Shown piece after piece: positions 1 to 62,228 of a stretch of DNA of 62,851 nt. Origin of the DNA: a virus (taxonomy: Duplodnaviria > Caudoviricetes). The stretch spans positions 1 through 62,851 of the IMG/VR virus record IMGVR_UViG_3300017914_000417. One strand, written 5' to 3'. Position numbers and translations under genes: made by a program. A model generated the notes under the pieces. That model made no database searches, was not told the origin of the DNA, and saw only the letters and a program-made list of their open reading frames with translations. Positions within the stretch are counted from its first letter, which is position 1; each line of letters opens with the position of its first letter.

Positions 1-2059
1 AGTGGTGACAAACCAAGCAGAGGTTAGCGAACCACTTTGGAGGGCAGGGCTATCCATCGCAAAGTTTTGTACGGACGGAGAGAAAGCGGCTCACGCTATA
101 TCGAAAGACCATCCTGAGTACACACGAGAAGATACTATCAAGAAGATAGAACTTATAAAAGGTCCGTACACCTGTGCTAAGTTTGATGAGTTTAACGCTG
201 GGGTTTGCGTTAACTGTCCGAATTGGGGCAAAATTAAGTCGCCAATTACGTTAGGGCAACAAATTAAGGAAGCCGAACCAGACGAGGTAGTGGAAGAAGA
301 GTTAGGGAACTCCCTAACAAAACAGTACGTCATTCCGCCATACCCACGCCCGTATTTTCGTGGCGCAAATGGTGGGGTGTACACTCGCACTACCAACGCT
401 GAAGGCGACATGGACGAAACACTGATATATCACAATGATATATACGTTGTGCGTAGGTTACGTGACCCCGAACTTGGAGAGGCTATAGTTATGCGACTGC
501 ACCTGCCGCAAGACGGGGTGCGCGAGTTTACTGTGCCGCTAACTTCTGTCACCTCAAAAGAAGAGTTTCGCAAAGCTATGGCTATGGAAGGGGTGGCTGT
601 CACAAGAATGGATCCGCTTATGACTTACGTAACATCATGGGTAAACGAGTTACAGACTACTTCTAAGGCTGACAAAGCACACCGCCAGTTTGGGTGGACG
701 GATGAGAAATGCACCTCGTTTGTTTTGGGGGATAGGATTATCCATGCCGACAGCACCGAGCCTAACCCGCCTACTTCGCACACTGCCAGCCTTCTACCGT
801 CATTCGAGCCTAGAGGTGACATAGAAGAATGGAAGTCAATGCTGAACTTCTACAACAAAGACGGTTTTCAGTTACATCAGTTTGTTATCGGTGCGTCATT
901 TGGTTCGGCTTTGATGGAGTTATCGTCTATAAACTGCGCTGGTATCCACCTGTACGGCAAGTCAGGCGTGGGTAAAACTACGGCTATGGAAGCAGGGCTA
1001 AGTTTATGGGGCAACCCGAAGAACTTGCTGACATCGCAAAACGACACGCACAACACCCGTATGCACAGGGGCGAGATATACCATAGTCTTCCGCTGTATA
1101 TGGACGAACTTACTAACGCTAGGGCGTGGGAGTTGTCCGATATTGTGTATCAGCTTACTAGCGGTAAGCAACGTGGGCGTATGTCCAGTGGTAGCAATAC
1201 AGAACGTTATCGGGGCGAGCCGTGGAAACTGTTAGCAGTGACATCGGCAAACGCTAGTATGTGGGAAAAGATTAGCGGTGCGAAAGCTATGCCGACAGCA
1301 GAGGCACAGCGGATGCTAGAGGTAAATGTGCCTAAGATGGAACTGCCACCAAAAGAGCAGACCGATGCACTACAGCATAAAGTTGCCAATAACTACGGCC
1401 TGGCGGCGGAGCAGTACATACAATACGTGATAAGAAATCTAGACGAAGTTAAAAAACTCATAAACCAGGTCCAGCTACGTCTCGATGAACAGGCTGGGCT
1501 AGAAGCCGCCAACAGGTTCTGGTCTGTTGCAGGTACGATGCCCATTGTGGGTATTCTAATCGCCAAGCAGTTGGGCTTTGTATCATATGATACTAAACAG
1601 CTGTTTGCATGGGTGGTGGACACTCTGAAGCAGAACGTACGTGGTGTCAAAGATATGGACGTATCCGTAGAACAGACCCTGAATGATTATATGCACGAAC
1701 ATTGGGGCAATGTGCTGTGGATTAAAAGCACGGACGACCTACGCGGCAAGGCTGTGGACAACGGTGGGCTGGACTCGCTCATCACGCCAGAAATACTGCC
1801 GAGGGGCAAGCTGATAGCGCGGTATGAGACCGATGTAAAACGCGCCTACTTACTACCTAAACCTTTGAAGGCGTGGTGTGTAGAACAGCAGATACACTAC
1901 GGTATGTTTATACAGGATTTAAAAACTAAGATGGGCGCCCAGCAGAAGAAGGTGCGGTTGAGTAAAGGCACGAACATGAGCCTGCCGCCAACGTCATGCT
2001 ATGTTGTCCACTGTGATATAGAAGGCGTGGATGAAACAGGGAATACTCAGGAAGAATGA
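1..2059 (+). CDS. Primase-helicase, C-terminal part (PriCT-like + Cys cluster + DUF927 helicase); 5'-truncated
   Basis: EPLWRAGLSIAKFC, C-x8-C-x2-C, Walker A GKSGVGKT, Walker B LYMDE; N-terminal primase half at 62229-62851. Confidence 0.85.
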   Translation, partial: VVTNQAEVSEPLWRAGLSIAKFCTDGEKAAHAISKDHPEYTREDTIKKIELIKGPYTCAKFDEFNAGVCVNCPNWGKIKSPITLGQQIKEAEPDEVVEEELGNSLTKQYVIPPYPRPYFRGANGGVYTRTTNAEGDMDETLIYHNDIYVVRRLRDPELGEAIVMRLHLPQDGVREFTVPLTSVTSKEEFRKAMAMEGVAVTRMDPLMTYVTSWVNELQTTSKADKAHRQFGWTDEKCTSFVLGDRIIHADSTEPNPPTSHTASLLPSFEPRGDIEEWKSMLNFYNKDGFQLHQFVIGASFGSALMELSSINCAGIHLYGKSGVGKTTAMEAGLSLWGNPKNLLTSQNDTHNTRMHRGEIYHSLPLYMDELTNARAWELSDIVYQLTSGKQRGRMSSGSNTERYRGEPWKLLAVTSANASMWEKISGAKAMPTAEAQRMLEVNVPKMELPPKEQTDALQHKVANNYGLAAEQYIQYVIRNLDEVKKLINQVQLRLDEQAGLEAANRFWSVAGTMPIVGILIAKQLGFVSYDTKQLFAWVVDTLKQNVRGVKDMDVSVEQTLNDYMHEHWGNVLWIKSTDDLRGKAVDNGGLDSLITPEILPRGKLIARYETDVKRAYLLPKPLKAWCVEQQIHYGMFIQDLKTKMGAQQKKVRLSKGTNMSLPPTSCYVVHCDIEGVDETGNTQEE
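301..318. repeat. Palindrome GTTAGGG-AACT-CCCTAAC (in helicase CDS)
   Basis: Read directly. Confidence 0.9.
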
Positions 2060-2258
2060 CCTAAACCCAGACGGTGTAAAGATAACTATATCTTGGGATA
2101 ATATGTCGGTAGGCACATCAATATTTGTACCTTGCCTAAATACCGAAAAAGCATCACGTCAAATAAAGGCCATAACTAACGAAAAAGGTTGGCAAATTAA
2201 GCAGAAGGTCAGGATTGAGGACGGTAAATTAGGTCTTCGTGTGTGGAGATTTGTATGA
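2031..2258 (+). CDS. Conserved phage hypothetical protein (75 aa)
   Basis: Overlaps helicase stop; W..M..GTSIFVPC...GLRVWR pattern typical of small phage proteins. Confidence 0.7.
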   Translation: MKQGILRKNDLNPDGVKITISWDNMSVGTSIFVPCLNTEKASRQIKAITNEKGWQIKQKVRIEDGKLGLRVWRFV

Positions 2259-2264
2259 TAGACT
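2256..2264 (+). promoter_or_regulatory. Putative extended -10 promoter (TG-A-TAGACT) for candidate sRNA
   Basis: TGnTAnnnT match ending about 6 nt before hairpin at 2270. Confidence 0.4.
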
Positions 2265-2269
2265 GTTTT

Positions 2270-2350
2270 CGACAGACCTTTTTCTTCTTTGGTCATGTCG
2301 TTTCTCCAAAGCCCCCTACTGTTTGATGACGGCAGTAGGGGGTATTTTAT
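2270..2350 (+). ncRNA. Candidate antisense small RNA (two hairpins, anti-RBS segment)
   Basis: Hairpin CGACA-GACC/GGTC-A-TGTCG, then TTTCTCC, then terminator; 2292-2308 is the exact reverse complement of 47676-47692. Confidence 0.55.
2312..2350. terminator. Intrinsic terminator between the convergent arms (possibly bidirectional)
   Basis: Stem CCCCCTACTG/CAGTAGGGGG followed by TATTTTATT. Confidence 0.75.
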
Positions 2351-5300
2351 TCCCACTCACGGGAGTACTGGAGTAGCGAGGCGCGTAGCATTGGGCTAAG
2401 AGTGATGCCGTTGTGCATATTCTTACTTGTCTTTATATGAGTCTCGATAGATTTGTTTATAGTTTTGCTGTCAATACCTGCACCTTTTGCGGCATGTTTT
2501 TTGTTAAACTTCTCTATGTCTTTCAAAGCCTTTGTACGGTCATACGGACTACCAGCCCTTATCGCCATATAGAAACGCCGTAACAGCTTCGTGCGTTGTT
2601 CCAAGATGCTCCGCTCTATGCCTTTTAGAGAACGGTTTCTTTCCTGTTCAAAGTTATATCGTGCAGGGGTAAACCCTAAGAACTTACCGAAATGCTCAGT
2701 TAGAGTTATATCGTCCAGAATTATATCACCACGTCTTGTCTTGAACGCACCGTCTCTTTGTAGCCGCCCGACTAGTGAAGTGTATGCGTTAGCAACAGCA
2801 GGGGGTAAGAAGCCTTCAATCCCTCGTTCGATATCTCCGTTCAGCAAGTCATTACCTGCTCTAACACCTCTGCCCAATGTACTTAAGAACGGGCCCCCAA
2901 AATAGAAGCCAATAGTTTCCTCTAAAGATGCGTCCTCGTTATATCTGTTCTCTTGCACCACGAGGTCAGTAAGTTTAGCGCGTGACGCTATGTCTACACC
3001 AGTCAGTTGGTTAAGGGCTCCTTTATACCAACCCTCCCCAATAGATTTACGCACGATAGTATCGAAGTCTTCCTCATCGTCTTCAGTGAACATAAGGTCG
3101 TACAGTGAAGATATTACACCGTATAAAGGCAATCCATGTACCCCCGCAAAGAACAAGGCCGCACCGTGCATACTAACTAGTTGTTTACGTGCTAACGCCC
3201 GTAGTTCAGGATCTCCAGTAGAGCTGTAATCTATCGCTCTGAGTGCAGATTTGAACATAGTGTAGTACATATTAAGACCATAACTCTTATACATAAGAGC
3301 GATACGCCCCAGCCCTTCTTGAGATAATCTCGGTGCAGTTTCGAGAGCTAGGCCACCGTTAAGTTGCTCTGCTTGGTAGATAGCTTCAGATGTAGCTAAC
3401 TCGTTTTTCTGCGCAGTGGTTAGGTCGTTAGTGTTTATATATTTACCTTCTACTTCAGAGAATATACGAGGTTTGGTATCTATCTCTTTTCTTAGCAACC
3501 TGTAGTTAGCAAACAGTATGGTTTGTCTGTTAAACTTCTCCACTATGTTAAAACCAAATGCTGACAACTCTACGGTTTTATCCGCTAAACCTTTTGCTCT
3601 AGCACTCTCATCAAGGCCGAGATTATCCAGCAGGAACGACCGCGCTAAGTACCCTCTTTCTGCCGCCGCCTTAATTATGGGTGTATAGGCTTTTAGGATT
3701 TGTTTCTCTTCGTTAGTCAGGTAGTCTAGACCCTCTTTGAGAGTGTAGTTACCGTCTTTGTCGACATCGAAGTACTCATCAACTTGTTCTGGTTTGTCTT
3801 TGTTACCAAAGATCCTGCGCTGTTTAGGTAGCCCTACGACAAGTTTAGACATATTTGTAGCTTCGGATATAGCGCCTATAGTGTCGTCCATACCATGCCT
3901 AGCCGCCATATAAGGGGCGGCAAACAACGGTATCTGAGATAAGTTAATTATCGCTGACGATGTGTTGAACCCGATTGTATATAAAAAGGCGAGTTGATTA
4001 GCCCCCTTTACGAACGGCTCGCGTTGCTTGTTCTTAGCACCGTTACGCGCAAAATCTAAGCGGTTAGTAAGCTCTACTTTAACATTCTGTACATCAGCGG
4101 CTAGCTTCTGCTTAAAACCTTTCATGCCAGCGGCAGGGGGGTCGGTAGGCTTGATGCCTTCTAATTCTTTCTGCAACTCTCTAAACGTGACACCGTACTT
4201 TAGTTTTACCGCCTGTCTACCGATATCATACGCTTTAGTTTGTAGAGCTAGGCCTGTGTCTTCGATAAACCCAGCAGTTCCTTTACGTTTTTGCAGTGAC
4301 TTAGCAAAAGAAGTTTCAGGAAGAGTATCTACGAACAGCCGCATAAACCGCTCTTTAACTATCGGGTCAACGTTAGTGCTATCCAGCAATTCAAAAGTCT
4401 GCCTAACAAAGGAGCTAGGCGGAGTTTGCTCGAAGAACTTACTAGTTTGTGTGTCCTCTGTTTCTACAGTCAAGTTAGGGTCTTTACGTAGTTCTCTTGC
4501 AAAAGCGTCTCTCTCACTAATACTTGTGTATGCGAAAAACGCGTAGGACTCTTCAGGGCTTTGTGCCGCTTTGTTGATTACTTTCAGTGTGTATTGGCCT
4601 TCACGAACAAGAGGGAAATACACTTCTAATGACCCCGATGCAAACAAACGAGCAAAGATATCATTCTTCAGTTTTTTAGCTCTTGCTTTTCCGTCTTGCA
4701 TATCTTTGGTCATGCTGTCGATTTCGCCAAAGATTACAGATTTCAACTCTGCGTATTGCTTAGAATACAATTCACGTATCTGCTGATACATCTTCTTGCC
4801 ATCTGCACCGAGAGCATCCCAATCCCTACGTTGCATATCCCATATCTCAGCTAGATTGTTACCATCCTTGTCGATTCGCGGTGTGCCGTCCTTGTTTTCG
4901 TAGTTCGACCGCGCTCGCTGTGGGTCTACCTGATACAGTGTAGCTCCGTACTTACCGTTGTAGATTACACGGTCTAGTGCTGTTTTCTTTGTGGGGTTTG
5001 CCTTTGCCCACGGCGCCCATTTTTCACGGATAAAATCGTTTACAACTTTATCAGAATCGTTTATCGCCCCACGTTGTTCTTCTATGGCCTTGTGGATTCT
5101 TGCCCCGATGTTCCCCAGCCCTACTAAGTTAGCTATATCGCCCATAGACTTTGTGCCTACAAGACCCATAGCAAGGTTCTTGATTTTTGTGTTGCTGGTC
5201 AGGAAAATATCTAACAGTTTGTTTGCTGGCTTAGTACCTCGCCCACTTTGCACGCCACCTAAGAATTTACCCGTTTCAGAGGAGGCCACGCCTTGCTGTG

Positions 5301-8300
5301 CTATTTGACTAATACCATCTGGTGTACCTGCCATATATAGTAGGCCAGCGTTTCTAGTCTCAGGCGATACCGCTAACAGTCCGTCAACAAGACCGTCAAA
5401 CTTGTCCTGTGCAGAACCTATCTTCTTAGAGTCGAGACCTACAAGGTTACGTACGAAGTTAGTTAATGTATTGAGAAAACGTTGTAGTGCGCTTATAGGC
5501 TTGCCGTCTGGATGGATACCACCTAGCTTTGCTTGGAACTCAGGGTTAGTCATAGCTTCTGCTACAAATTCATCCACAGACTGAGCGCCATAGTAGGTAT
5601 CCAGCACGTCTTTTACTTCGTTAAACAACTTGGTCAGCTGTTTAGTTATAGGGTGCGACTTGTTGGCAAGTGTAGCATTAGTTGCAGCGTGCACCATCTC
5701 GTGTAGGATAGTATGCGGATTCATACCTATTTCGGCATCAAGCGTAATAGTGTTGGTCTTAGGGTCAAACATACCTGCACCGAGCTTGCCATTAGGCATA
5801 CGGATAAGACCTGTTACTTCTACTTTTGTATCCCCAACATATTTTTGCAGCTTCGAGGCTATCTTACGTACGTTAGGATCTGGTGACGTAGCCGACAACG
5901 CTGCCAGGGCCTCACCAAGTTCTCCTGCTTCTAACAACTTCTTTATAGTTGGGTGTACAGGGGTATCCAGCGCCATTATAGCATCGGCATCGAGAAAGTC
6001 TGGTAAGAAATCTAGGTCGTCTAGGTCGCTAAGAGTTTCACGGAAATCAGCGCCTGTGAATCGCGCATTAAACTCTTTAAGGTCTTTCTGTACCTCTTTA
6101 GCGTATTCTTTAGCTTTCTTCGCTTCTATCTTACGCTGTTCTGCTACCTTGTCTCGTCTGGTACTTTCTTTCCGTTTTTGGTCGGAGAACGATTCTTCTT
6201 GCTGTTCAACCAGCTCATCTAAAGTTTTGTTAGCTTCAGGGCTTAGATTTTTACGTACCCATTCTTTAGCGTTATTAGCGGCTTGCTTCCCTTTACCAGC
6301 GAAATACTGCCGAGCCCCTGGGGAATCCTGTGCAGTAGTTTGTTCTTGGTCGTTACCAAAAATAGATTCGTGGGCTATGGCTTCTAGCGCATCGTTAGCA
6401 CTTTCGTGGGTAGAAAAGTATTTTTGTGCGTCACGTTCTTGAGCGGCTTCTGGTGTTTCTTGTTTCTTAGAACGCTGCTTTTTTAGTTTTGTTTTCACCA
6501 AAGAAATAACTTTATCTGTGTCCTCTACAGACGCAGGGCCTAGTTTTGGCTGTGTGTAAAACTCTAGCTTAGATGATTCCGCACGGACTTCTGTAGGTGC
6601 TACAGCTTTCTCAACTTTTGCCCGCTTTGATATCTTGTTAAGAGCCTTTACCTCGTCTTTTAACGCTTGGGCTGTAGTTTGGCGTGCGGCCTTATCTACT
6701 TTCGCTTGCGCGGCTTTAGCGGCTTTCTTTTTCGCAGCTGCGGTTACTTTTGGTTGGGCTACTTTAGCTTTTGTAACAGGCACAGGAGCAGCTTTTGCGG
6801 CCTTTTGCGCTTTCTTAGCCGCAGCTACTTGGGCGTTAGCTTTTGCTTTTGTAATACGCTCTATAACTTCTTGCCCTGACATTGTGGACTCTTGAAGTTC
6901 TGGCGATGGTGTAACGGTTTGTGGGGTTGTTAAGTCTGCACCAACAGGTTCTGGCACGCGAGCGCGTTCCCTATCTGCCGCCAAACGCTGCACGAGTTCC
7001 GCAGGGTCAAAGGTATCGCGGTCAGTTTCGGCAGCGGCGACTGGTTGGTCTAGTGTATCGTCGAGCTGTCCTTGTCTGACATTATCTCTGCGAGGTAATA
7101 GTTCAGGGCGATCCAGTCGTCTGGCTCCAGCTTCTGTAGTGCTTTCGGGAACTCGCTCGGCTCTGGCAGCTTGCTCCAGCTCCAGTACACCATCCTCAGT
7201 GCTTCTTCTAGATTCTTCTGCGACAGGACTGGTAGGTACAGGATCTCTTCTTCCACTATCAGGTCGTCCATCTCGTCTAGCTCGTACATCTGCACCTCCC
7301 TCGCTATCCGTTTCGGCAGCGTCGAGTGCAAGAGATTGCTGCCTAGAATCTTTACGCGCAGCTTCTAACTCTAGTTCGGCTCTCTGGTTCTCACGAACTA
7401 CCTCGTTAAACTGTTGTTCGTCCCGAATCCGCATATTGCTCTCATCGAGGCGTCTTTGTATGTCTGCACGGGCTTCTGCGTCTTGCTCCTCATCAAGCAT
7501 ACGCTCCAATGCTACAGTTTCTTCCACTGTCCCTGCTGGTGGATCTTGTCGGGTACCTAGATCTTGTCCTGTAAATAACTCACCCTGTGTTAAATTTGCG
7601 GGGAGCGGAGTAGGTGTGCGCTGCTGTGCTTGTACTTCTTCATCCTGATCGGTCATTGCGTCAGGCTGTAAGTTAGGATCTTCTGCTAATCTAGCTAGTT
7701 CGTCTTGCGACCTAGAAGTTCTGCCTTTTCTTCCTTGTAAGAAGTCTATAGCACCCTGAAATACTGCGCCAGCCATACCGCCAGCTTGAGCCTCTTTAAT
7801 TGCTTCTTCGTTAAAGAAGTCTGCTTCAGGATTGTACCCTTGCTCAATCGCGTTCTGTGCTAACGCCGCACCAAATTCCTGCGCTGCTTCTAATCCGCCT
7901 GTGCTAAGTGCGGATCGTGCTTTTTTCCTAAGCGTGTCAGTAGGTCCGTTTACAAGCACTCTCTGTAGTACTTTGTTTACCCCAGGAAGTTTGTTTAAGA
8001 ACCTAACAAATGGTATTACTTCAGTGGCTCCGACTAGCCCACCTAATCTTTCAGCCTGCTCTTCTTCCTCTTTCGTTGCACCGAAAGCTCTAGCTCGACT
8101 ACTAGCCTCACCAACACCCGCACCGACACCCATAGCAGCACCGACACCAAGACCTATCGCACTAGTAACTCCCGCCCCTGCACCTAATGCGGGCGCTCCT
8201 AAAGCCACTGCCGCAGCTGGGGCTAAAAAGCCAGCAATAGACCCAAGCCCAGACCCTAGCAAGTACGATAGGCTATCTCTGTCTGCAACATCATATGTGG

Positions 8301-37235: not shown

Positions 37236-37466
37236 TTACGCGGTTGCTGTTGCGCCAGTGTCTACACGAATCCAGTTTGAACCGTCAGAAAACACGAGGT
37301 TGCCTGTACCATTACCTGCGGTTTCAGCGGCCTTACGAGCGTCTGATACATAATAGATGTAGCCTTCGTTGGCAGCATCTGCTGTAGGTAAGCTTGCAAA
37401 TTCGATTGGGTTAGCCCAGAAAGCAGTATTTGATTTCAGTGGGCCTGAAAAAGTAGAAGTAGCCAT
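37236..37466 (-). CDS. Small capsid-associated protein
   Basis: MATSTFSGP start, FSDGSNW motif; follows major capsid gene. Confidence 0.6.
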   Translation of the reverse strand: MATSTFSGPLKSNTAFWANPIEFASLPTADAANEGYIYYVSDARKAAETAGNGTGNLVFSDGSNWIRVDTGATATA

Positions 37467-37539
37467 TTTGATCTCCTGTCTTGGCTAGTGTCAGCCACAC
37501 CATGCAGCTGTCAGGGATACGTACAGTATAATACAAAAA

Positions 37540-46456: not shown

Positions 46457-46474
46457 GTTAGGGAATTCCCTAAC
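46457..46474. repeat. Palindrome GTTAGGG-AATT-CCCTAAC
   Basis: Read directly; upstream of first early gene. Confidence 0.9.
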
Positions 46475-47077: not shown

Positions 47078-47189
47078 GATGCCAGTTCCGTAGCCGCGTC
47101 GAGTTCGTGCATCGCACAGCTACGAGTTTTGTTAGGGACTTCCCTAACACTTGTACTGATGTGATACCAGTTCCGTAGCCGCGTCGAGT
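47078..47189. repeat. Pair of 27-bp direct repeats (47078-47104, 47163-47189)
   Basis: GATRCCAGTTCCGTAGCCGCGTCGAGT, 1 mismatch. Confidence 0.85.
47131..47148. repeat. Palindrome GTTAGGG-ACTT-CCCTAAC
   Basis: Read directly; between the 27-bp direct repeats. Confidence 0.9.
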
Positions 47190-47190: not shown

Positions 47191-47524
47191 AATGTTCCAA
47201 ATGTTCCTATGAATGTTCCAGAATGTTCCTTTTTATTTCGGCAAAAAGGTACATTAGCAAATCGTGGTAAATCGTGTCGTGCGGTGGTTTACAACGGTAT
47301 CCTGTTAGGGAAATCCCTAACAAATAAGACTATATATATATAATGTTCCTTTTATAAATATTACTATCCACCGTGACGACTAGCCTATAACAAGTGTATG
47401 TATGTTCCTTTATCTGTTCGCTTAGGTATGGCGTAGTGAATACCTCATAAATTAGGGAACATTAGAACATTACAGTTTTTACAGAGACTTACCTGTTCCC
47501 ACATACAGAACATTGTAGAACATT
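47191..47524. repeat. Iteron-like AATGTTCC octamer array in opposing orientations with an (AT)n tract; candidate origin or packaging region
   Basis: AATGTTCC at 47191, 47200, 47212, 47222, 47342; (G/A)GAACATT copies at 47456, 47464 and 47507-47524; TATATATATATA at ~47331. Confidence 0.6.
47304..47321. repeat. Palindrome GTTAGGG-AAAT-CCCTAAC
   Basis: Read directly; inside iteron-like region. Confidence 0.9.
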
Positions 47525-47655: not shown

Positions 47656-47687
47656 ACCAACAACAACTTGTCATATGGAGAAACGAC

Positions 47688-48695
47688 ATGACATTCAATA
47701 CTACAAACATCAACGACTTTACTTCTAACGCCACAGCACCAGCCGATACAATCGGCTCGAACAAAGCTGACCTCGTTCTCAAGTTAGGGAACTCCCTAAC
47801 AAACGGAACATCACCTATCGACACCGAATCTGTTCCGTCACTAGCTTCTAGTGCAATGCTGGTAGAACTCAGCATCTCTGCATGGCGTGGTTCAAAGCTA
47901 GCCAAGCGTGAATCCGAAGAAGTAACACAGCGCGCCAATGCTGGCGACCGCACAGCCAGAGTGACCAAGAGCCTGTTACCAGATTGTGAGGAACTTAAAG
48001 CTATCCACACACATATCAACGCAATACGCGCCTACAACAATTCGGCAACTATGCCGTGGGGTAACATGGGGCAGAAGCTACTAGCGACCAAAGGCTACCC
48101 GACCTATCACAATGACATTACTGGCATGATTGCCGAAGGCTATCGTTTGGTTGACGCATTCTGTCAATCGTATGATTGGAAGATAGCAGATGCACAGGCA
48201 TCACTTGGCGATATGTTTGACAGTAACGATTACCCATCAGTGGATGACATACGCAGGAAGTTTGTATTCCGTTTGTCGTATCAACCGCTACCTGATGCTG
48301 GTGATTTCCGTATCGACATTGGCAATGAAGCTATGCGCGACATCCAAGAGAGATACAATTCTTTTTACGAGACTTGCTTCAAGCAAGCTATGGGTGATGT
48401 GTGGCAACGCGTTTACAAGGCTTTGTCTAACGCTTCCGAGCGCTTGGATTACTCTGACACAGAGGACAAGCGAGTATTCCGTGATTCGCTGGTTGGCAAC
48501 ATCATGGGTCTGGTCGATGTACTAGATGTATGTAATGTCACCAACGATACGCAGATGTCGGCACTACGCCAGCAACTGCAACAAGCCTTCGAGGGTATTA
48601 CCGCTGACGCATTGCGTGATGACGAGTACCTACGCAGGGAAACCAAGACCAATGTGGACGCTATCATCGCACAGCTTCCATCAATCGAAATGTAA
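47688..48695 (+). CDS. DUF3150-like protein
   Basis: GGAGAAACGAC-ATG; AMLVELSISAW, TMPWG, YPSVDDIRRKF..RL..PLP; precedes AAA/vWA pair. Confidence 0.6.
   Translation: MTFNTTNINDFTSNATAPADTIGSNKADLVLKLGNSLTNGTSPIDTESVPSLASSAMLVELSISAWRGSKLAKRESEEVTQRANAGDRTARVTKSLLPDCEELKAIHTHINAIRAYNNSATMPWGNMGQKLLATKGYPTYHNDITGMIAEGYRLVDAFCQSYDWKIADAQASLGDMFDSNDYPSVDDIRRKFVFRLSYQPLPDAGDFRIDIGNEAMRDIQERYNSFYETCFKQAMGDVWQRVYKALSNASERLDYSDTEDKRVFRDSLVGNIMGLVDVLDVCNVTNDTQMSALRQQLQQAFEGITADALRDDEYLRRETKTNVDAIIAQLPSIEM
47783..47800. repeat. Palindrome GTTAGGG-AACT-CCCTAAC (in CDS)
   Basis: Read directly. Confidence 0.9.
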
Positions 48696-48698: not shown

Positions 48699-48716
48699 GT
48701 TAGGGTATTCCCTAAC
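48699..48716. repeat. Palindrome GTTAGGG-TATT-CCCTAAC
   Basis: Read directly; intergenic. Confidence 0.9.
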
Positions 48717-48740
48717 ATATTGTCAGAAGGAGAAACGACA

Positions 48741-49835
48741 ATGACTAATCAAGCTATCACAATGTATGCACAGTCTCTGGACGGTATCGCATCACTCATC
48801 AAAGCCAACGGCAACAAGCGCACTATCATCGTGCAAGGTGACATGGGTTGTGGCAAATCATCAATCCTCAAGATGTTGTCAGATATGTTGCCTGACCATG
48901 CGCCATGCTACTTCGATTGCACCACCAAAGACTTGGGTGACATCATGATTCCAAAGATGTCTGAGTTGGACGGACAGGACTATGTTCGGTTTGCAGTCAA
49001 CGAGGAGTTGGGCGTACATCTGGGCAAACCTGTCATCATCATGCTTGACGAGTTCGGCAAGTCCAATCCAGCGGTCAAGAACGCACTGCTTCGTTTGATA
49101 CAGGAGCGTGAGATTGGTGGCTACAAGTTGCACCCTGACAGCATCGTATTTGCTACCACCAACAAAGGCTCGGAGGGTGTCGGTGACTTGTTACCACCTC
49201 ATGCGCGTAACCGCGTCGCAGTCGTACCCACACGCAAACCAAGCAACATGGAGTGGATTGAGTGGGGCATCAACAACGGTGTTGACCACAGCTTGCTCGG
49301 TTGGGTGAAGGACAATCCGCATCTGTTCGCATCATTCGAGGATGTCAAAGACCCTGACGAGAACCCATACATCTTCCACCCGAAGGCACAACGCACATCG
49401 TTTGTCACACCACGCTCATTGGAAGCGGCATCCGATTGGCTACATTGTCGGGCTGAGTTCAGTGATGATGCGCTCACAGCTGTTCTCATGGGTACGATTG
49501 GTGAACGAGCGGCAATGGACTTGATGGCGTTTGTCAAACTGGCTGACCAGCTACCTACATTGGAGTCTATCAAGACTGACCCGAAGAACGCAAAAGTGCC
49601 TGACTCTGCCGCCGCAGTTTGCATGGTAGTCTATCGCACACTAGCAAGTCTGGACAAAGATTGGGTGTCACAGTGGATGGACTACATGGTGCGTCTGGAC
49701 AAAGAAGCACAGGGTATGTTTGCCAACGGTGTACGCTCACCCAAGTACAGCAAGCAAACAATGGTCATGACCAACAAGAAGTTCACCGAGTGGGCTATGC
49801 AGAACAACTATATGTTCGCTGGTGACAAGAAGTAA
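48741..49835 (+). CDS. MoxR-like AAA+ ATPase
   Basis: GDMGCGKS, IMLDE, ATTN, ARNR, TPRS. Confidence 0.85.
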   Translation: MTNQAITMYAQSLDGIASLIKANGNKRTIIVQGDMGCGKSSILKMLSDMLPDHAPCYFDCTTKDLGDIMIPKMSELDGQDYVRFAVNEELGVHLGKPVIIMLDEFGKSNPAVKNALLRLIQEREIGGYKLHPDSIVFATTNKGSEGVGDLLPPHARNRVAVVPTRKPSNMEWIEWGINNGVDHSLLGWVKDNPHLFASFEDVKDPDENPYIFHPKAQRTSFVTPRSLEAASDWLHCRAEFSDDALTAVLMGTIGERAAMDLMAFVKLADQLPTLESIKTDPKNAKVPDSAAAVCMVVYRTLASLDKDWVSQWMDYMVRLDKEAQGMFANGVRSPKYSKQTMVMTNKKFTEWAMQNNYMFAGDKK

Positions 49836-49838: not shown

Positions 49839-49856
49839 GTTAGGGAATACCCTAAC
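49839..49856. repeat. Palindrome GTTAGGG-AATA-CCCTAAC
   Basis: Read directly; intergenic. Confidence 0.9.
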
Positions 49857-49880
49857 ATATTGTCAGAAGGAGAAACGACA

Positions 49881-51074
49881 ATGTTATCTATCGGAGTAAA
49901 TCTAACAGCAGAGCAACGACTGTCCAAAGCGGTCGTTGACATCATGGCTAACCCCAAGTATGTCGCTCTGTCTGGTGTCCTGATGATTGGCGAACGGTCA
50001 GTCACCAAAGCCAAAGCACCAACAGCTTGCACAGATGGCAAGAACGAATGGTACAATCCCGATTTCGTTGACACACTAAACGATGCCGAGTTGCGCTTCC
50101 TCGTATTGCACGAGTGCTATCACAAGCTGTACCGACACCTAATGACATGGAAACATCTTCACGAGCAGAATCACAGGATAGCCAACATCGCTTGTGATTA
50201 TGTCATCAACATCAAGATACAAGATGACAATCCTGATGGCTGGGCAAAGATGCCCGAAGGTGGCTACCTCGATGAGAAGTATCGTAACTGGGATACCGCA
50301 CAGGTATTCAAGGACATCTACGACAATGATGACGATGGCGGTGACGGTGGACGCGGTGGCGATGGCGGTCAAGGTTTCGATGACCACGATTGGGAAGGCG
50401 CACAAGAGATGACCGCTGATGAGCAACGCGAGTTGGCTCGTGAGTTGGACGAAGCTATCCGACAAGGTGCGCTCGTTGCTGGCAAGACTGGCTCTGGTGG
50501 TGACAGAGACTTGGCGGAACTGCTACAGCCACAGGTCAACTGGCGCGAGGTGTTGCGTGATTTCGTGACAACAAATTGTGCTGGCAAGGACTTCTCGACT
50601 TGGAAGCGACCTAGCCGCAGGTATGCCGCATCTGGTTACTATATGCCTAGTGCTATCAGTGAGCAGATTGGTGGGCTGGTTGTTGCCAACGATATGTCTG
50701 GCTCTATCGGTCAGCGTGAGATATCCGTCTGTCTTACCGAAACCAAAGAGGTATGCGATACAGTGCATCCCGATTGGGTACGCATCCTGTATTGGGATAC
50801 GCAGGTTTGTGGTGACGAGTTGTACCAGAACAACGAACTGGACACGATGATACAATCCACAAAGCCTGTCGGTGGTGGCGGCACTATGCTGTCTTGTGTA
50901 CCCAAGCACATGACCAAAGAGGGTATCGAACCTCAAGCTGTAATTGTCGTGACCGATGGCTACATTGGGGATTGGGGTACATTCAACTGTCCTGTCCTGT
51001 TTGTCATCATCGACAATCCGTCATGCAAAGCACCATTCGGTGTTACCGTCAATGTCAAGTCAAGAGATATGTAA
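49881..51074 (+). CDS. DUF2201-type metallopeptidase + vWA domain protein
   Basis: PTACTDG, LHECYH, MIDAS DMSGS, GGGGT, VTDG. Confidence 0.85.
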   Translation: MLSIGVNLTAEQRLSKAVVDIMANPKYVALSGVLMIGERSVTKAKAPTACTDGKNEWYNPDFVDTLNDAELRFLVLHECYHKLYRHLMTWKHLHEQNHRIANIACDYVINIKIQDDNPDGWAKMPEGGYLDEKYRNWDTAQVFKDIYDNDDDGGDGGRGGDGGQGFDDHDWEGAQEMTADEQRELARELDEAIRQGALVAGKTGSGGDRDLAELLQPQVNWREVLRDFVTTNCAGKDFSTWKRPSRRYAASGYYMPSAISEQIGGLVVANDMSGSIGQREISVCLTETKEVCDTVHPDWVRILYWDTQVCGDELYQNNELDTMIQSTKPVGGGGTMLSCVPKHMTKEGIEPQAVIVVTDGYIGDWGTFNCPVLFVIIDNPSCKAPFGVTVNVKSRDM

Positions 51075-51077: not shown

Positions 51078-51095
51078 GTTAGGGTATTCCCTAAC
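51078..51095. repeat. Palindrome GTTAGGG-TATT-CCCTAAC
   Basis: Read directly; abuts RBS. Confidence 0.9.
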
Positions 51096-51792: not shown

Positions 51793-52818
51793 ATGGCTTT
51801 ATATTACACAAACTACAGAACTTTCGCAGATGTTGTAGAGGACTATAACAAAATCAAACCTATCGTATCCAAGAACCACACAAGGGCAGATGATGTCCGT
51901 CCTATCGGTGACAGGGCGCGGAAACAAGAGCGCATTATCAAGCTGGACAATAACTGCTATGCTTTGTCGGATTGGGATACGCCTGACCAGATATTCTATT
52001 GGGGTCATACCGAACCACCTGTACCCAAAGAGACACGCGACTTTGCACCTATACTATGGCGCAAGCGTGGTGGCTCGGAGTATGTGCATATTCGCAATGG
52101 TGTCGGGCAAGCCGCACACAATGGTAGGTACTCATTCCTCAGCAGACATCTACCACCGCGTATGGATTTTGTCATCGACAACGGCAAGCAGTTTGTTCGG
52201 TATCAAGGTAGGCGGTATTTCCTACCCAAAGGAAAGTACTGGTGGCCTACTCGCGTGGATTACATGAACGAACATTACAACAAGGGCAACCAGAACATAC
52301 GCAGAGAGCAGTACAAGACTGGTCGCAATCCTGAACTTGTTTTCAAGCGTGATGGTGATAACTGGATTATCCAGAATGAACACTCACTACCCAAGCCGCC
52401 ACGCCAGTTGGTTCGCAAGGGTGTCAAGGCAAGATACGCGAAGGCTCTCAATTCTCTACGCGAGTATGTTTTCGCAATGGCGCCTGTTATCGTAGTGCAA
52501 GACGATGGGAGTTATTACCGCAGACATAATTGGGAGCAAGAGATGTCCATGCGTTCTGAGTTTGCGCAGGCAGTCAAGGAGCATTATCCTGAGTATGATA
52601 CGGATGACCGCTATTTCGCAATGAATAGCATTCCGCCAAAACTTGCACTAGACATCATTACCAGCTACAATGATTCACTAAGATTATACCTTGCTTATCA
52701 GTTTGGCATAGATTCTGATATCTGTACTATGTCCGACCAAGAAGATGTTAAGCGTGTCAAAGCACAATACAACCGCTGGATAAACAAGTTGTGTGGTTTC
52801 ACAAAGGTAGTTAGTTAG
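51793..52818 (+). CDS. Hypothetical protein (341 aa)
   Basis: AGGAGAAACACA-ATG; long ORF. Confidence 0.75.
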   Translation: MALYYTNYRTFADVVEDYNKIKPIVSKNHTRADDVRPIGDRARKQERIIKLDNNCYALSDWDTPDQIFYWGHTEPPVPKETRDFAPILWRKRGGSEYVHIRNGVGQAAHNGRYSFLSRHLPPRMDFVIDNGKQFVRYQGRRYFLPKGKYWWPTRVDYMNEHYNKGNQNIRREQYKTGRNPELVFKRDGDNWIIQNEHSLPKPPRQLVRKGVKARYAKALNSLREYVFAMAPVIVVQDDGSYYRRHNWEQEMSMRSEFAQAVKEHYPEYDTDDRYFAMNSIPPKLALDIITSYNDSLRLYLAYQFGIDSDICTMSDQEDVKRVKAQYNRWINKLCGFTKVVS

Positions 52819-52831
52819 GGAGTTCCCTAAC
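52814..52831. repeat. Palindrome GTTAGGG-AGTT-CCCTAAC
   Basis: Read directly; supplies TAG stop of upstream gene. Confidence 0.9.
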
Positions 52832-52857
52832 AAGTTGACATAAGAAGGAGAAACGAA

Positions 52858-53691
52858 ATGTCATTTACACCAAAGTTAGTAAAAGAAGTAAAAGCTAAGT
52901 ACAACAATGTCGAAGCAGGAGAGGAGTTGCTACTTCTCATCTGCAAGCTGAAAGGGGTGATGCCGACTTTGCACACCCATGTCACATCCTCTGGCACAGC
53001 GTACTTGTACATGAACAACCAGCCATATGTATTGGGGCGCATCAAGTACGGACAGTTACAGGACAGCACTATGGACTATATGTATGGTGTGGTCAGTCCG
53101 AATATCTGTAACGAAAAGTACAGTGACCACCGTGAGTTGTTCAGCACTAAGATGACGAAGAACGTGGACACGGCACTAAAACATGTAAAGAAGTATGTGC
53201 GTCCTATGTCTCTTACCGACATCGCCAGGCAGAGTACAAACGATTATGAGCATACGGTGCGTAGGCTAGTGTCTCAGAAGGTCAACACAGCAGAACAAAG
53301 CAAGCGCAGTGTTTTGCAAGACGAGTTGATGACCGAGTTGCGTACGATGTATCAGACAGGGTACGAGTTCAATGCGACCCTTGCCGAGAAGATACATGAT
53401 TGGATTGCGGCTGATGAAGAAGCATCCAAGTATGAGCGTAAGTTCAAACAGCTTGAGTGTCGTTTCGTGCAAGTGAAGAACACACCGATGGGGCAACACC
53501 TATCGGTGGCGCAGTGTACTGATATGCTGTCGTACAGCACAAAGGTAACACCCACAGACGTGTTCACAGCAACTAACGCACCCGAAGAATTGGTGGGTAA
53601 GTTGTCAGTCTTAACCATACTCGAAGATGAAGCGTATGTTGAGGATGTAGGCATGAAGATTACAGACGAGTTGTTCTATGTCGAAGGATAA
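52858..53691 (+). CDS. Hypothetical protein (277 aa)
   Basis: GAAGGAGAAACGAA-ATG; long ORF. Confidence 0.75.
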   Translation: MSFTPKLVKEVKAKYNNVEAGEELLLLICKLKGVMPTLHTHVTSSGTAYLYMNNQPYVLGRIKYGQLQDSTMDYMYGVVSPNICNEKYSDHRELFSTKMTKNVDTALKHVKKYVRPMSLTDIARQSTNDYEHTVRRLVSQKVNTAEQSKRSVLQDELMTELRTMYQTGYEFNATLAEKIHDWIAADEEASKYERKFKQLECRFVQVKNTPMGQHLSVAQCTDMLSYSTKVTPTDVFTATNAPEELVGKLSVLTILEDEAYVEDVGMKITDELFYVEG

Positions 53692-54999: not shown

Positions 55000-55329
55000 A
55001 TGAACTGTCCAGAATGTAAATCGAAATCTAAGGTAGACGAGTCCAGAACCAGAGACAATAACACATGGCGTAGACGTACTTGTTTGTCATGTAATCACAA
55101 ATATCAGACAGTTGAAAAACTGTTTGTGAAACCAGTTACGAAACCAGTTACCGCGCCCACGAAAGTTAGGGAAAACCCTAACAAAAGAAAACGCAGAAAG
55201 AGTTTCGTGCCACTACAGAAGAAGCATGAGCCAGCAGTGATGCGCGAACCTGATGTAGACTCGATGACCGATGAAGAATTGGAAGCTTGGATTTTTTCAG
55301 AGGGGGCTAGCTTCGATGATGAGGATTAA
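55000..55329 (+). CDS. NrdR-like Zn-ribbon protein (no ATP cone)
   Basis: MNCPEC...KVDESR...RRRTCLSC...YQTVE. Confidence 0.75.
   Translation: MNCPECKSKSKVDESRTRDNNTWRRRTCLSCNHKYQTVEKLFVKPVTKPVTAPTKVRENPNKRKRRKSFVPLQKKHEPAVMREPDVDSMTDEELEAWIFSEGASFDDED
55165..55182. repeat. Palindrome GTTAGGG-AAAA-CCCTAAC (in CDS)
   Basis: Read directly. Confidence 0.9.
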
Positions 55330-55643: not shown

Positions 55644-55655
55644 TGGAGAAATGAT

Positions 55656-56135
55656 ATGGCAAGGAAGAAGACTACGAAGCACGAAAAAGTTTGGAAGATG
55701 TTACTGGCGAACCCGAAAGCCCCTGTGAAAGAAATAGCAGAGAAGGCAGGGTGTTCAACCAAGTACGTGTACATGCTAAAGAGCAAGATAGGTACACCAA
55801 TGGAAGTGTTAGTACCAGACACTAAGAAGAAAGACCTAGATGCTTGGAACGGACTCGGCGGAACAGTACGTAAGTCACGCTCAAACGTGTTGGCACAAGC
55901 AGACAAGCTGGTCAATGGCGCTCGAGCAGACGAGTACGGTGATGCGAAGCAGAACTTTGATGACATTGCAAAGATGTGGTCAGTGTTGTTAGGAACAGAA
56001 ATAACAGCACAGCAGGTAGCATTGTGCATGATTGCGGTGAAGTCAGCTAGGCTGATGAAGTCCGACAGCCCCGACAGTTGGGTAGACATCTGCGGTTACG
56101 GTGCGCTGGGTGGAGAGATGCAATCAGATGCTTGA
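55656..56135 (+). CDS. HTH + DUF6378-like protein
   Basis: VKEIAEKAGCSTKYVY HTH; R..EYGDA..NF..IA.MWS...DSWVDICGYGAL. Confidence 0.75.
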   Translation: MARKKTTKHEKVWKMLLANPKAPVKEIAEKAGCSTKYVYMLKSKIGTPMEVLVPDTKKKDLDAWNGLGGTVRKSRSNVLAQADKLVNGARADEYGDAKQNFDDIAKMWSVLLGTEITAQQVALCMIAVKSARLMKSDSPDSWVDICGYGALGGEMQSDA

Positions 56136-58979: not shown

Positions 58980-58992
58980 GGAGTTCCCTAAC
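58975..58992. repeat. Palindrome GTTAGGG-AGTT-CCCTAAC
   Basis: Read directly; supplies TAG stop and abuts helicase RBS. Confidence 0.9.
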
Positions 58993-59004
58993 AGGAGAAA
59001 CGAC

Positions 59005-60540
59005 ATGGAAGTATATGACAATAAGGCTGTCGTGCTACGTCTTCAACACCCTGAGAAGGTTACGACACTATTACCAAACAGCAAGCTACTAGATGATGGT
59101 CGGTTAGCCGTTAAATGGGGTGTTGAAGAAGCACAAACCCTCAATGACATAAATATAAACGTGCCGTCACCTATTACTGGTAAATATCAGTGGACTGGTA
59201 AGTATAAACCCTTCGCGCACCAGCGAGAGACAGCCGCGTTCTTCACCCTTAACAAACGAGCCTTTTGTTTCAACGAGCAGGGTACTGGTAAAACAGCCAG
59301 TGCTATCTGGGCGGCAGACTTTCTTATGAAACAAGGACTAGTCAGACGAGTGCTGATTATATGCCCTCTGTCGATTATGCACAGCGCATGGAAGAATGAC
59401 CTGTTTACGTTTGCGATGCACCGTAAGGTGGATATTGCGCATGGCGCACCAAAGAAGCGTGAACAGATAGTTAAGTCCGATGCTGAGTTCATCATCATAA
59501 ACTACGATGGGGTAGAGGTTGTATCGCAAGCTATTGCGGAGGGTGACTTCGACCTGATTATTGTAGACGAGGCGACACACTACAAGAACGCGCAGACTAA
59601 ACGTTGGAAGACACTGTACAAGTTGTTAACACCTGATACTTGGATGTGGATGATGACGGGTACACCAGCCGCACAGTCGCCTCTGGACGCTTACGGATTA
59701 GCCAAGATGATAAACCCGAACAGTGTGCCTCGTTTCTTTGGCTCGTTTCGAGACATGGTGATGTGGAAGGTGACACAGTTCAAGTGGATGCCTAAAGAGA
59801 ACGCCACCGATGTAGTGTACAACGCACTACAGCCAGCTATCCGATACACAAAAGAACAGTGCCTAGACCTACCGCCTATGACGTATGTTAAAAGGCGCGT
59901 GGAGTTAACAAGACAGCAGAAGAAGTATTACGACATCCTCAAGAGCCGTATGATTATGCAAGCCGCTGGTGAGGAGATAACAGCCGCCAATGCCGCTGTA
60001 CAGATGGGTAAGCTGTTGCAGATATCATCTGGTGCGGTCTACACCGATGAAGGAGAGGCACTAGAGTTCGACATCAAGAACCGCTACCAAGTGCTACGAG
60101 AAGTGATTGACGAGAGTAGCAAGAAGGTGCTGGTGTTTGTGCCGTTCAAGCATACGATAGATGTGCTGGCAGACAAACTACGCAAGGACGGTATCACCAC
60201 TGAGATAATCCGAGGTGATGTGAGTGCTGGCAAACGCACAGAAATATTCTCTGACTTTCAAGATAAACCCGACCCGAAAGTGCTGGTCATTCAGCCACAA
60301 GCGGCGGCGCATGGTGTTACGTTGACGGCGGCGAACACAGTCGTATGGTGGGCACCAACAAGTTCTCTGGAAACATACGCACAGGCAAACGCCAGGGTAC
60401 ATCGTTCAGGACAGACACACAAGTGTACCGTAGTACAGTTAGAAGGCTCTGCGATCGAGAAGCGTGTTTACGCATTGCTAGATAACAGAATTGATGTACA
60501 CACAAAAATGATAGACCTTTACCAAGAAATACTTGACTAG
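59005..60540 (+). CDS. SNF2-family helicase
   Basis: EQGTGKT, IVDEA, MTGTP, QANARVHRSGQ. Confidence 0.9.
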   Translation: MEVYDNKAVVLRLQHPEKVTTLLPNSKLLDDGRLAVKWGVEEAQTLNDININVPSPITGKYQWTGKYKPFAHQRETAAFFTLNKRAFCFNEQGTGKTASAIWAADFLMKQGLVRRVLIICPLSIMHSAWKNDLFTFAMHRKVDIAHGAPKKREQIVKSDAEFIIINYDGVEVVSQAIAEGDFDLIIVDEATHYKNAQTKRWKTLYKLLTPDTWMWMMTGTPAAQSPLDAYGLAKMINPNSVPRFFGSFRDMVMWKVTQFKWMPKENATDVVYNALQPAIRYTKEQCLDLPPMTYVKRRVELTRQQKKYYDILKSRMIMQAAGEEITAANAAVQMGKLLQISSGAVYTDEGEALEFDIKNRYQVLREVIDESSKKVLVFVPFKHTIDVLADKLRKDGITTEIIRGDVSAGKRTEIFSDFQDKPDPKVLVIQPQAAAHGVTLTAANTVVWWAPTSSLETYAQANARVHRSGQTHKCTVVQLEGSAIEKRVYALLDNRIDVHTKMIDLYQEILD

Positions 60541-62135: not shown

Positions 62136-62214
62136 TGTAGGGGCTAGGCTGGTTTTTGTTCGTTCCCCAGCCGAAAAGGGTGAGTTGCAACACCCCTGCC
62201 CCTGCATCTTTTTT
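62136..62214 (+). ncRNA. Three-way-junction RNA element followed by U-tract
   Basis: P1 TGTAGGGGC/GCCCCTGCA, P2 GGCTGG/CCAGCC with U/C loop, P3 GGGTG/CACCC. Confidence 0.45.
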
Positions 62215-62228
62215 CGGGAGAGGTTGTT

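What the first reader, a model, noticed from the sequence alone, without database searches (positions are those of the whole stretch)
2256..2350. Candidate trans-acting sRNA with a 17-nt perfect antisense match to an early-gene RBS and start codon 45 kb away
Seen: 2292-2308 (GTCATGTCGTTTCTCCA) is the exact reverse complement of 47676-47692 (TGGAGAAACGACATGAC), the SD+ATG of the DUF3150-like gene. The same segment pairs 14 nt with the SNF2 helicase start (58994-59007), 12 nt with the AAA and vWA starts (48729-48740, 49869-49880) and 10 nt with gene 52858. It lies in an ~80-nt unit with a TGn-TAGACT box upstream, a 5' hairpin, the anti-SD TTTCTCC unpaired between the hairpins, and an intrinsic terminator. 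Established: bacterial sRNAs repress translation by occluding the SD/AUG. Inference: an sRNA from the far end of the replication arm switches off a regulon of early genes that share one target sequence.
Basis: partly seen in the sequence, partly recalled or inferred. Interest (0 to 1): 0.9.

Follow-up and report, generated by a model that had tools for sequence, protein, structure and literature searches.

The report
Conserved phage anti-RBS small RNA gene
At the end of this marine phage's early genes sits a small, conserved RNA gene whose exposed stretch mirrors the ribosome-docking sites of those same genes, so it probably turns their translation down, although no transcript has yet been seen.

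Summary
2292-2308 is the exact reverse complement of 47676-47692, and three more early starts match with 3 mismatches. The unit 2256-2351 reads: extended -10 box TGaTAGACT over the stop of a conserved 75-aa gene, hairpin 1, unpaired GUUUCUCCAAA, intrinsic terminator.

It is conserved. A covariance model finds it once, at the same spot, in 71 of 97 distinct related sequences and in 17 of 18 related genomes. TGnTAnnnT is kept in 84 of 97. Both helices show compensatory changes, with G·U far commoner than A·C, which points to a plus-strand RNA.

The minus-strand ORF is not conserved. The CU-rich seed changes between lineages, and each phage's RNA fits its own early-gene starts better than other phages' RNAs do. 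Late-gene starts show no such effect.

The 17-nt length is particular to this window. What is conserved is a 5-7-nt anti-SD core plus variable flanks. Expression, repression and timing are untested.

No Rfam family matches. Earlier notes of this scan (e1-6196971, e1-6226967) describe what looks like the same kind of element on other DNA.

Verdict: a probable new phage sRNA family.

The parts
2031..2258 (+). Conserved 75-aa gene of unknown function. Its TGA stop (2256-2258) supplies the TG of the promoter-like box.
   Evidence: An ORF with invariant PDG..W..F.P..W..G.R.WR is present in 29 of 29 sequences examined, the window included, and aligns as A1. No Pfam or PHROG family. AF2 pLDDT 83. No PDB fold match at E <= 0.001.
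2256..2264 (+). Extended -10-like box TGaTAGACT (TGnTAnnnT). No good -35.
   Evidence: Across 97 distinct relatives: T 97, G 93, A 97, T 93, A 95 of 97; then three unconserved positions; then T in 88 of 97. The full pattern occurs in 84 of 97, and 93 of 97 stops are TGA. It is invariant in all 22 rows of A2.
2271..2299 (+). Predicted 5' end (about 2271, 7 nt after the -10 T) and hairpin 1: GACAGACC / loop UUUUUCUUCUUU / GGUC-A-UGUC.
   Evidence: Fold. GACAG is conserved at +15..+19 after the stop (76, 71, 65, 75 and 64 of 97). Helix 1 is 83.4% paired, and 4 of its 6 pairs show changes on both sides. Arm variants include GATAG/CTATC, CGAAACA/TGTTTCG and CGACAAA/TTTGTCG.
2300..2310 (+). Unpaired linker GUUUCUCCAAA: the anti-SD seed.
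   Evidence: Unpaired in both MFE and centroid folds. TCTCC lies within 138 nt of the stop in 72 of 97 distinct relatives, and TTCTCC in 67. The CU-rich stretch is unpaired or in a loop in the MFE folds printed for 19 genomes.
2292..2308 (+). 17-nt exact complement of 47676-47692. It spans the 3' arm of hairpin 1 and the seed.
2311..2351 (+). Intrinsic terminator: 13-bp stem, 7-nt loop, tail AUUUUAUU.
   Evidence: Helix 2 is 95.5% paired, and 4 of its 6 pairs show changes on both sides. The T run lies on the plus strand in relatives.
47676..47692 (+). SD and ATG of the early gene 47688-48695: the best predicted target (-31.1 kcal/mol).
48729..48743 (+). SD and ATG of the AAA_5 ATPase gene (12-nt exact match).
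49869..49883 (+). SD and ATG of the DUF2201 (vWA-like / metallopeptidase) gene (12-nt exact match).
58994..59007 (+). SD and ATG of the SNF2 helicase gene (14-nt exact match).
55645..55658 (+). SD and ATG of gene 55656-56135 (GGAGAAATGATATG; -26.8 kcal/mol with G·U pairs).
52847..52860 (+). SD and ATG of gene 52858-53691 (10-nt exact match).

Best explanation
2256-2351 is a small-RNA gene of about 80 nt on the plus strand. It lies at the 3' end of the early/replication arm, where that arm meets the late arm head-on.

Inferred steps. An extended -10 promoter overlapping the stop codon of the preceding gene starts transcription at about 2271. Read-through early mRNA ending at the same terminator would carry the same module as its 3' end. 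The RNA folds into a 5' hairpin, an unpaired CU-rich stretch (GUUUCUCCAAA) and an intrinsic terminator. The CU-rich stretch pairs with the Shine-Dalgarno sequence GGAGAA(A) of the phage's own early genes. Pairing can then spread into the spacer and the AUG by opening hairpin 1. This blocks 30S binding and lowers early-protein synthesis.

Shown here: the anatomy, its conservation, helix covariation, the strand, the complementarity and its lineage-specific tracking. Inferred: transcription, repression as opposed to some other outcome, and timing.
For: 1. Conservation of place and form. Model R1 hits once per source, always just after the 75-aa gene and on its strand, in 71 of 97 distinct related sequences (357,088 bases, E <= 0.01). 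It hits in 17 of 18 related genomes or contigs, with no other hit in 709,296 bases at E <= 1.

2. Promoter signature. TGnTAnnnT occurs in 84 of 97. The three middle positions are unconstrained, and GACAG begins 7 nt after the last T.

3. RNA structure. 89.5% of cells are paired against 80.3 +/- 0.7 in shuffles. The covariation score is 0.304 against 0.136, reached by 0 of 500 shuffles. Slid controls give 44-59% paired. 8 of 12 pairs change on both sides.

4. Strand. There are 70 G·U cells against 6 A·C cells, and the T run follows the terminator on the plus strand.

5. The seed is the best-kept non-helical part and is predicted single-stranded.

6. Targets in the window. In a scan of both strands, the 7 best sites other than the element's own antisense are all early-gene starts, at -31.1 to -21.0 kcal/mol. 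GGAGAAA-N3-6-ATG occurs 9 times on the plus strand, each time before an early ORF, and once on the minus strand, which is the element itself. GGAGAA sits in 10 of 26 early RBS windows and 0 of 35 late ones.

7. Tracking between lineages.
- Seed CAUCCUCCUGC goes with early AGGAGGA RBSs (G006, G010).
- Seed CUCUCUUUCUCUU goes with GAGAGAGA / AAGAGAAGGAGAG (G007, G009).
- Seed UGUUGUUCUC goes with GGAGAACAACAUG (G013).
- Seed ACUCUCC goes with GGAGAGU (G011).
Own-RNA against own early starts sums to -356.6, against a permuted -321.7 +/- 6.2 (0 of 20,000 permutations as low). Late starts give -280.9 against -283.7 (12,981 of 20,000). With near-duplicate genomes dropped: 13 of 50,000. Without the window and its closest kin: 169 of 50,000.
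Against: - The extended pairing is not conserved. G001, the nearest relative, keeps CGACAUGAC in the RNA, but its early RBSs read GGAGAACAAAATG, GGAGAATGATATG and the like. G003 has CGACA in its RBSs but not in its seed.
- After column-centring, the own RNA ranks only 14th, 16th and 13th of 19 in G003, G005 and G015.
- In G006 and G007 the own RNA also ranks first against late starts. There the match may reflect a genome-wide SD or composition dialect.
- The conserved core is only 5-7 nt of anti-SD, which would touch any strong SD, host ones included.
- About half of the 17-mer is locked in hairpin 1.
- 10 of 97 distinct sequences have no CU core. 3 of the 97 (L117, which stands for L007 too, L184 and L096) have no element of this form at all.
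- Early RBSs resemble each other because they belong to a repeated palindrome-plus-RBS cassette. The number of matches in the window therefore does not count independent events.
- Method limits. Gene starts come from my own crude caller, which scores SD-like words. Duplex energies ignore accessibility. Permutations are not corrected for phylogeny. Alignment A3 was fitted to the model's structure.
Confidence: 0.55

Rival explanations
1. The unit is only the 3' end of the early operon: an intrinsic terminator plus a protective upstream hairpin. The CU-rich stretch would be kept for a cis reason, such as a site for Hfq, S1 or an RNase, or terminator efficiency. It would have no base-pairing targets.
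For: The unit sits exactly where the early arm must end. Distant cultured relatives with the same layout have only a plain terminator there or no gap at all. Some lineages lack the CU core.
Against: A terminator needs neither a conserved TGnTAnnnT box at a fixed distance nor a seed that changes in step with the early RBS type. The seed is anti-SD in several unrelated sequence versions.
Confidence: 0.17
2. A real small RNA whose main targets are host mRNAs, or SD sequences in general, acting as a mimic of the 16S 3' end for host shut-off. On this reading the fit to phage early genes is a by-product of their strong SDs.
For: The conserved core is a generic anti-SD. The type-B seed AUCCUCCU resembles, from memory, the 16S anti-SD CCUCC. 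In G006 and G007 the own RNA fits late starts as well.
Against: In the window the best sites are early starts only, and the pairing runs into phage-specific spacer and AUG. Late starts overall show no own-genome advantage. The host is unknown, so host targets could not be scored.
Confidence: 0.12
3. The functional strand is the minus one. GGAGAAACGACATG would be the RBS of ORF 2296-2159 (MTKEEKGLSK...), or a decoy copy of the early RBS for a protein that recognises it.
For: In the window the SD and ATG are perfect and are followed by a 45-aa frame. Identity on the minus strand predicts the same tracking as complementarity on the plus strand.
Against: Of 67 distinct TTCTCC-bearing relatives, 43 have no start codon 3-12 nt after GGAGAA. 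Of the other 24, 19 give frames under 30 aa. In L002/L009 the frame is ATG ACC TAA. The frame runs antisense through a strongly conserved gene. G·U outnumbers A·C 70 to 6. The -10 box and the T run are plus-strand features.
Confidence: 0.03
4. Chance, or a relic: an inverted, decayed copy of the early palindrome-plus-RBS cassette with no present function.
For: Early RBSs belong to a repeated cassette. On the minus strand the order is also hairpin then RBS.
Against: 5 matches against 0.14 expected. The unit is conserved across relatives whose primases are only about 50% identical, with covarying helices.
Confidence: 0.01

Closest known systems
c4 antisense RNA of phages P1 and P7 (Rfam C4)
   Same: A phage-encoded RNA of about 77 nt, acting in trans, that pairs with a phage mRNA to control the protein made from it (Table 1 of review PMC12197685, read). 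That its exposed stretches cover the ribosome-binding region is from memory.
   Different: From memory, c4 is cut out of the very transcript it controls and governs one operon (ant) for immunity. Here there is a promoter-like box of its own, many predicted targets of one temporal class, and no sequence or structure match: no Rfam hit at gathering score over the whole window, and none to C4 at E <= 10 over 2100-2500.
T4 RegB endoribonuclease and RegA translational repressor
   Same: Shut-off of a whole class of early phage genes through their Shine-Dalgarno or start regions. From memory, RegB cuts within GGAG of early mRNAs. Paper PMC9409239 was seen only as a search listing.
   Different: These are proteins, not an RNA, and there is no homology. 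The likeness is in the proposed logic only.
Bacterial sRNAs with C/U-rich seeds that cover several SDs (RsaE/RoxS, LhrC, RNAIII)
   Same: CU- or C-rich motifs held in loops and linkers between hairpins. Here a second CCUCC-like motif often sits in the hairpin-1 loop. There are many targets, all hit at the SD.
   Different: Those are chromosomal, respond to stress or quorum signals, and act on host regulons. The comparison is from memory and was not tested here.
3'-end sRNAs with a promoter inside the upstream gene (DapZ, MicL type)
   Same: The promoter overlaps the end of the upstream ORF and the terminator is shared with that gene's mRNA, so the same RNA module can arise by transcription or by processing.
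   Different: Named from memory. No sequence relation, and no processing site was examined.
VpdS of vibriophage VP882
   Same: A phage-encoded, trans-acting sRNA of about 50 nt that affects both phage and host mRNA levels (review PMC12197685, section 2 and Table 1, read).
   Different: VpdS is Hfq-bound and tied to quorum-sensing-driven induction of a temperate phage. It has not been described as an anti-SD seed matched to an early-gene class.

Membership tests
Trans-encoded base-pairing sRNA (functional class) | Own transcription start or a defined processing site | tested here: inconclusive
   An extended -10 signature, TGnTAnnnT, is kept in 84 of 97, with GACAG 7 nt downstream. No experimental 5' end is available. 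The tool's sigma-70 scan, which needs a -35, found nothing in 1500-3500.
Trans-encoded base-pairing sRNA (functional class) | Rho-independent terminator at the 3' end | tested here: met
   Stem 2311-2343 plus a T-rich tail. Helix 2 is 95.5% paired with compensatory changes.
Trans-encoded base-pairing sRNA (functional class) | A conserved, single-stranded seed | tested here: met
   TCTCC in 72 of 97. Unpaired in the MFE and centroid folds.
Trans-encoded base-pairing sRNA (functional class) | Complementarity to targets beyond chance, and tracking them in relatives | tested here: met
   with the caveats given in the Against line.
Trans-encoded base-pairing sRNA (functional class) | The RNA is expressed and changes target translation or stability | not testable with these tools
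   Needs RNA data or reporter assays.
Rfam C4 antisense RNA (P1/P7 c4) | Match to the family covariance model | tested here: not met
   No hit at gathering score in the whole window. At E <= 10 in 2100-2500 there were only two chance-level hits, F6 and HOTTIP_2.
Any Rfam 15 family | Match at gathering score over 2256-2351 | tested here: not met
   One search lists only Mu-gpT-DE (37464-37516) and int-alpA (62137-62218).
Protein-coding gene on the minus strand (2296-2159) | Start codon and reading frame conserved in relatives | tested here: not met
   43 of 67 have no start, and 19 of the other 24 give frames under 30 aa. The frame is antisense to a conserved gene.

The most novel reading that the evidence does not exclude
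An abundant lineage of uncultured marine phages (at least 560 contigs encode the neighbouring gene) writes its early genes in a Shine-Dalgarno dialect of its own, inside repeated hairpin-plus-RBS cassettes. It also carries one small RNA whose seed co-evolves with that dialect. The RNA would act as a timer made of RNA alone, closing the whole early class while late genes, which use other SDs, stay open. That would be an RNA counterpart of T4 RegB/RegA. Convergent late transcription reading through the gene in antisense might in turn reset it.
Probability: 0.35. Interest if true: 0.8.

Novelty: new variant of a known kind. Interest (0 to 1): 0.62.

Why it matters
Few phage small RNAs have a known role, and those listed in the 2025 review (PMC12197685, Table 1) mostly control one gene or host functions. 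This element would be a whole-class translational switch. It comes with a ready-made comparative data set: dozens of seed variants, each with its own matching set of ribosome sites. That makes the rule of seed-target co-evolution directly testable. The family is absent from Rfam and from cultured phages in the collection searched, so it also marks an unannotated gene in many marine viral contigs.

Tried and rejected
- Nucleotide search of 50,697 phage records with 1500-3500: no match.
- Protein search with the primase: the best cultured relatives are Pseudomonas phage Rollin (29.5%) and Rhizobium phages RHph_TM3_14A and kin (23.6%). Both have the same gene order, but Rollin has no gap and RHph has a plain terminator without an anti-SD. 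R1 finds nothing in either locus.
- RNA evidence: no RNA holder listed among 22 runs, so expression could not be examined.
- Four DNA runs from four studies were laid on 1-6000. Contigs cover the element in all four. None of the 40 listed differences falls between 1037 and 2580. At this low divergence that says little about constraint.
- MAFFT plus RNAalifold on 22 sequences recovered only the terminator core, because the hairpin-1 arms were out of register. I therefore gave the structure by hand and realigned with a covariance model, which biases pair counts towards that structure.
- 75-aa neighbour as a possible RNA chaperone: no Pfam or PHROG family. The model has pLDDT 83. No PDB match at E <= 0.001; the weak rows include Alba-like and KH folds, but none is usable.
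- Minus-strand ORF and minus-strand decoy: rejected.
- Genome terminus or packaging site: G002 has direct terminal repeats at its ends, while its element lies at about 47.2 kb.
- Earlier-findings look-up by sequence: nothing. By place: one unrelated note.
- Supplementary files of papers were not opened.

Full report
**What the window is.** The window is a complete virus record of 62,851 bases. It has no nucleotide match among 50,697 phage records. Plus-strand early and replication genes run from about 46.4 kb to the end. They continue in frame across the record's junction into 2-2059, a DUF927 primase-helicase. Minus-strand structural genes fill 2347-46201. The finding lies in the 88-base gap where the two arms meet head-on, so it marks the 3' end of the early arm.

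**The observation.**
- The 17-mer at 2292-2308 has one exact reverse-complement copy at 47676-47692 and three copies with 3 mismatches at other early starts. That is 5 matches, the site itself included, against 0.14 expected.
- GGAGAAA-N3-6-ATG occurs nine times on the plus strand, each time before an early ORF of 65-511 aa. It occurs once on the minus strand, which is the element itself.
- The RNA 2271-2351 folds into hairpin 1, an 11-nt free linker GUUUCUCCAAA and a 13-bp terminator (-33.1 kcal/mol, z = -6.07).
- Eight of the 17 bases (2292-2299) sit in the 3' arm of hairpin 1.

**Which strand, and is there a gene on the other one?**
- The plus-strand ORF 2031-2258 is conserved in all 29 sequences first examined and has invariant residues. 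It is a real gene.
- The minus-strand frame MTKEEKGLSK runs antisense through that gene and is not conserved. In the closest relatives it reads ATG ACC TAA.
- Among 67 distinct relatives with TTCTCC, 43 have no start codon 3-12 nt after GGAGAA, and 19 of the remaining 24 give frames under 30 aa.
- In the two helices G·U cells outnumber A·C cells 70 to 6.
- The T run follows the terminator on the plus strand.
The functional strand is therefore the plus strand.

**Conservation.**
- The primase and the small gene brought in 36 + 80 + 80 loci. At least 560 viral contigs encode the small gene.
- These gave 97 distinct downstream sequences.
- Position by position after the stop codon: T G A T A (93-97 of 97), three free positions, T (88 of 97), six free positions, then GACAG (64-76 of 97). 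That is the pattern of an extended -10 promoter, with the transcript starting at the foot of hairpin 1. It also explains why 93 of 97 stops are TGA.
- A covariance model built from 22 sequences with a hand-given structure finds exactly one hit per source, at this spot. It does so in 71 of 97 sources and in 17 of 18 related genomes, and finds nothing else in 709 kb.
- On the resulting alignment 89.5% of cells pair, against 80.3 +/- 0.7 in shuffles and 44-59% when partners are slid. Eight of 12 pairs change on both sides.
- This alignment was fitted to the structure, so these counts lean towards it.

**The seed and its targets.**
- TCTCC lies between hairpin 1 and the terminator in 72 of 97 sequences, unpaired or in a loop. 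Many hairpin-1 loops carry a second CCUCC-like motif.
- Other lineages carry other CU-rich seeds: CAUCCUCCUGC, CUCUCUUUCUCUU, ACUCUCC, CUCCUCCUCCC, UUCUCA.
- I fetched 18 related records and called genes with a simple caller of my own.
- Early RBSs follow the seed: AGGAGGA in G006 and G010, GAGAGAGA-type in G007 and G009, GGAGAACAACAUG in G013, GGAGAGU in G011.
- I scored each phage's pre-terminator RNA against each phage's start regions. The own-with-own sum for early genes is -356.6, against -321.7 +/- 6.2 for permuted pairings (0 of 20,000 as low). For late genes it is -280.9 against -283.7 (12,981 of 20,000).
- Dropping near-duplicate genomes gives 13 of 50,000. Dropping the window and its close kin gives 169 of 50,000.
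- In the window, a scan of both strands puts early-gene starts in the seven best places after the element's own antisense.
- GGAGAA is in 10 of 26 early RBS windows and 0 of 35 late ones.

**What speaks against the reading.**
- The long match is local to this window. G001, with an 80% identical primase, keeps CGACAUGAC in the RNA, but its early RBSs do not have it. G003 shows the reverse.
- The own RNA ranks poorly in G003, G005 and G015. In G006 and G007 it ranks first against late starts too.
- Ten of 97 sequences have no CU core, and three of the 97 have no element of this form.
- The early RBSs of the window belong to a repeated cassette, an 18-nt palindrome GTTAGGGnnnnCCCTAAC followed by the RBS. 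The palindrome has 11 copies, and two 52-nt cassette copies are 96% alike. The several matches are therefore not independent.
- The permutations do not correct for shared descent, and the energies ignore accessibility.

**Comparison with what is known.**
- No Rfam family matches, including C4.
- The 2025 review of phage sRNAs (PMC12197685; section 2 and Table 1 read) lists c4, sar, OOP, VpdS, PreS and others. None is described there as an anti-SD RNA aimed at a temporal class of phage genes.
- Two literature searches gave no such case in their listings. I read only listings and abstracts of the other papers.
- The proposed logic resembles T4 RegB/RegA, and the form resembles C/U-seed sRNAs and 3'-end sRNAs with internal promoters. 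These comparisons are from memory.
- Earlier notes of this scan (e1-6196971, e1-6226967) describe what appears to be the same kind of element in other phage genomes and reach a similar reading. I saw them after my own tests, and they are not independent evidence.

**Verdict.** This is very probably a real, conserved plus-strand RNA module (about 0.85). Acting as an sRNA that pairs with early-gene ribosome sites is the best-supported reading (about 0.55). Repression and timing are not shown.

Noticed in passing
window 46457-46474, 47131-47148, 47304-47321, 47783-47800, 48699-48716, 49839-49856, 51078-51095, 52814-52831, 55165-55182, 58975-58992, and 301-318: An 18-nt palindrome, GTTAGGGnnnnCCCTAAC, occurs 11 times (22 strand matches against 0.33 expected). 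Ten copies lie in the early arm, most just upstream of early-gene RBSs, and one lies inside the primase gene. Together with the RBS it forms a repeated cassette; two 52-nt copies are 96% alike. G002 and G003 carry a different palindrome (TAGTCCGTGGACTA) at the same places. It may be an operator, an RNase III or stabiliser hairpin, or a recombination cassette.
   Followed up: partly
window 62137-62218 (+) and 62229-62849 / 2-2059: An Rfam int-alpA RNA motif (43.1 bits) lies just upstream of the primase-helicase gene. That gene runs off the end of the record and continues in frame at base 2, so the record is circularly permuted.
   Followed up: partly
window 37464-37516 (-): Rfam Mu-gpT-DE RNA (73.6 bits, E 2.9e-15) in the structural arm.
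   Followed up: no
window 2031-2258 (+): The 75-aa protein is conserved in every relative seen and overlaps the primase stop. It has no Pfam or PHROG family. The confident AF2 model (pLDDT 83; strand, helix, beta-hairpin) has no PDB match at E <= 0.001. Whether it works with the RNA next to it is unknown.
   Followed up: partly
window 2311-2349, minus strand: The 2110-aa late gene ends at 2347, just outside the terminator stem. On the minus strand only three T follow the hairpin, and relatives show no A run before it. Late transcripts may therefore read through and be fully antisense to the small RNA. This is inference only.
   Followed up: no
window 47078-47104 and 47163-47189: Two 27-nt direct repeats, 96% alike and 85 nt apart, in the ORF-poor leader of the early arm.
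   Followed up: no
window 47662-47692, 48714-48743, 49854-49883: In three early leaders the SD lies between short inverted repeats (TTGTC...GACAA, TGTCAT...ATGACA) that share the GACA/TGTC stem of hairpin 1. The RNA and its target could in principle swap arms. This is not general in relatives.
   Followed up: no
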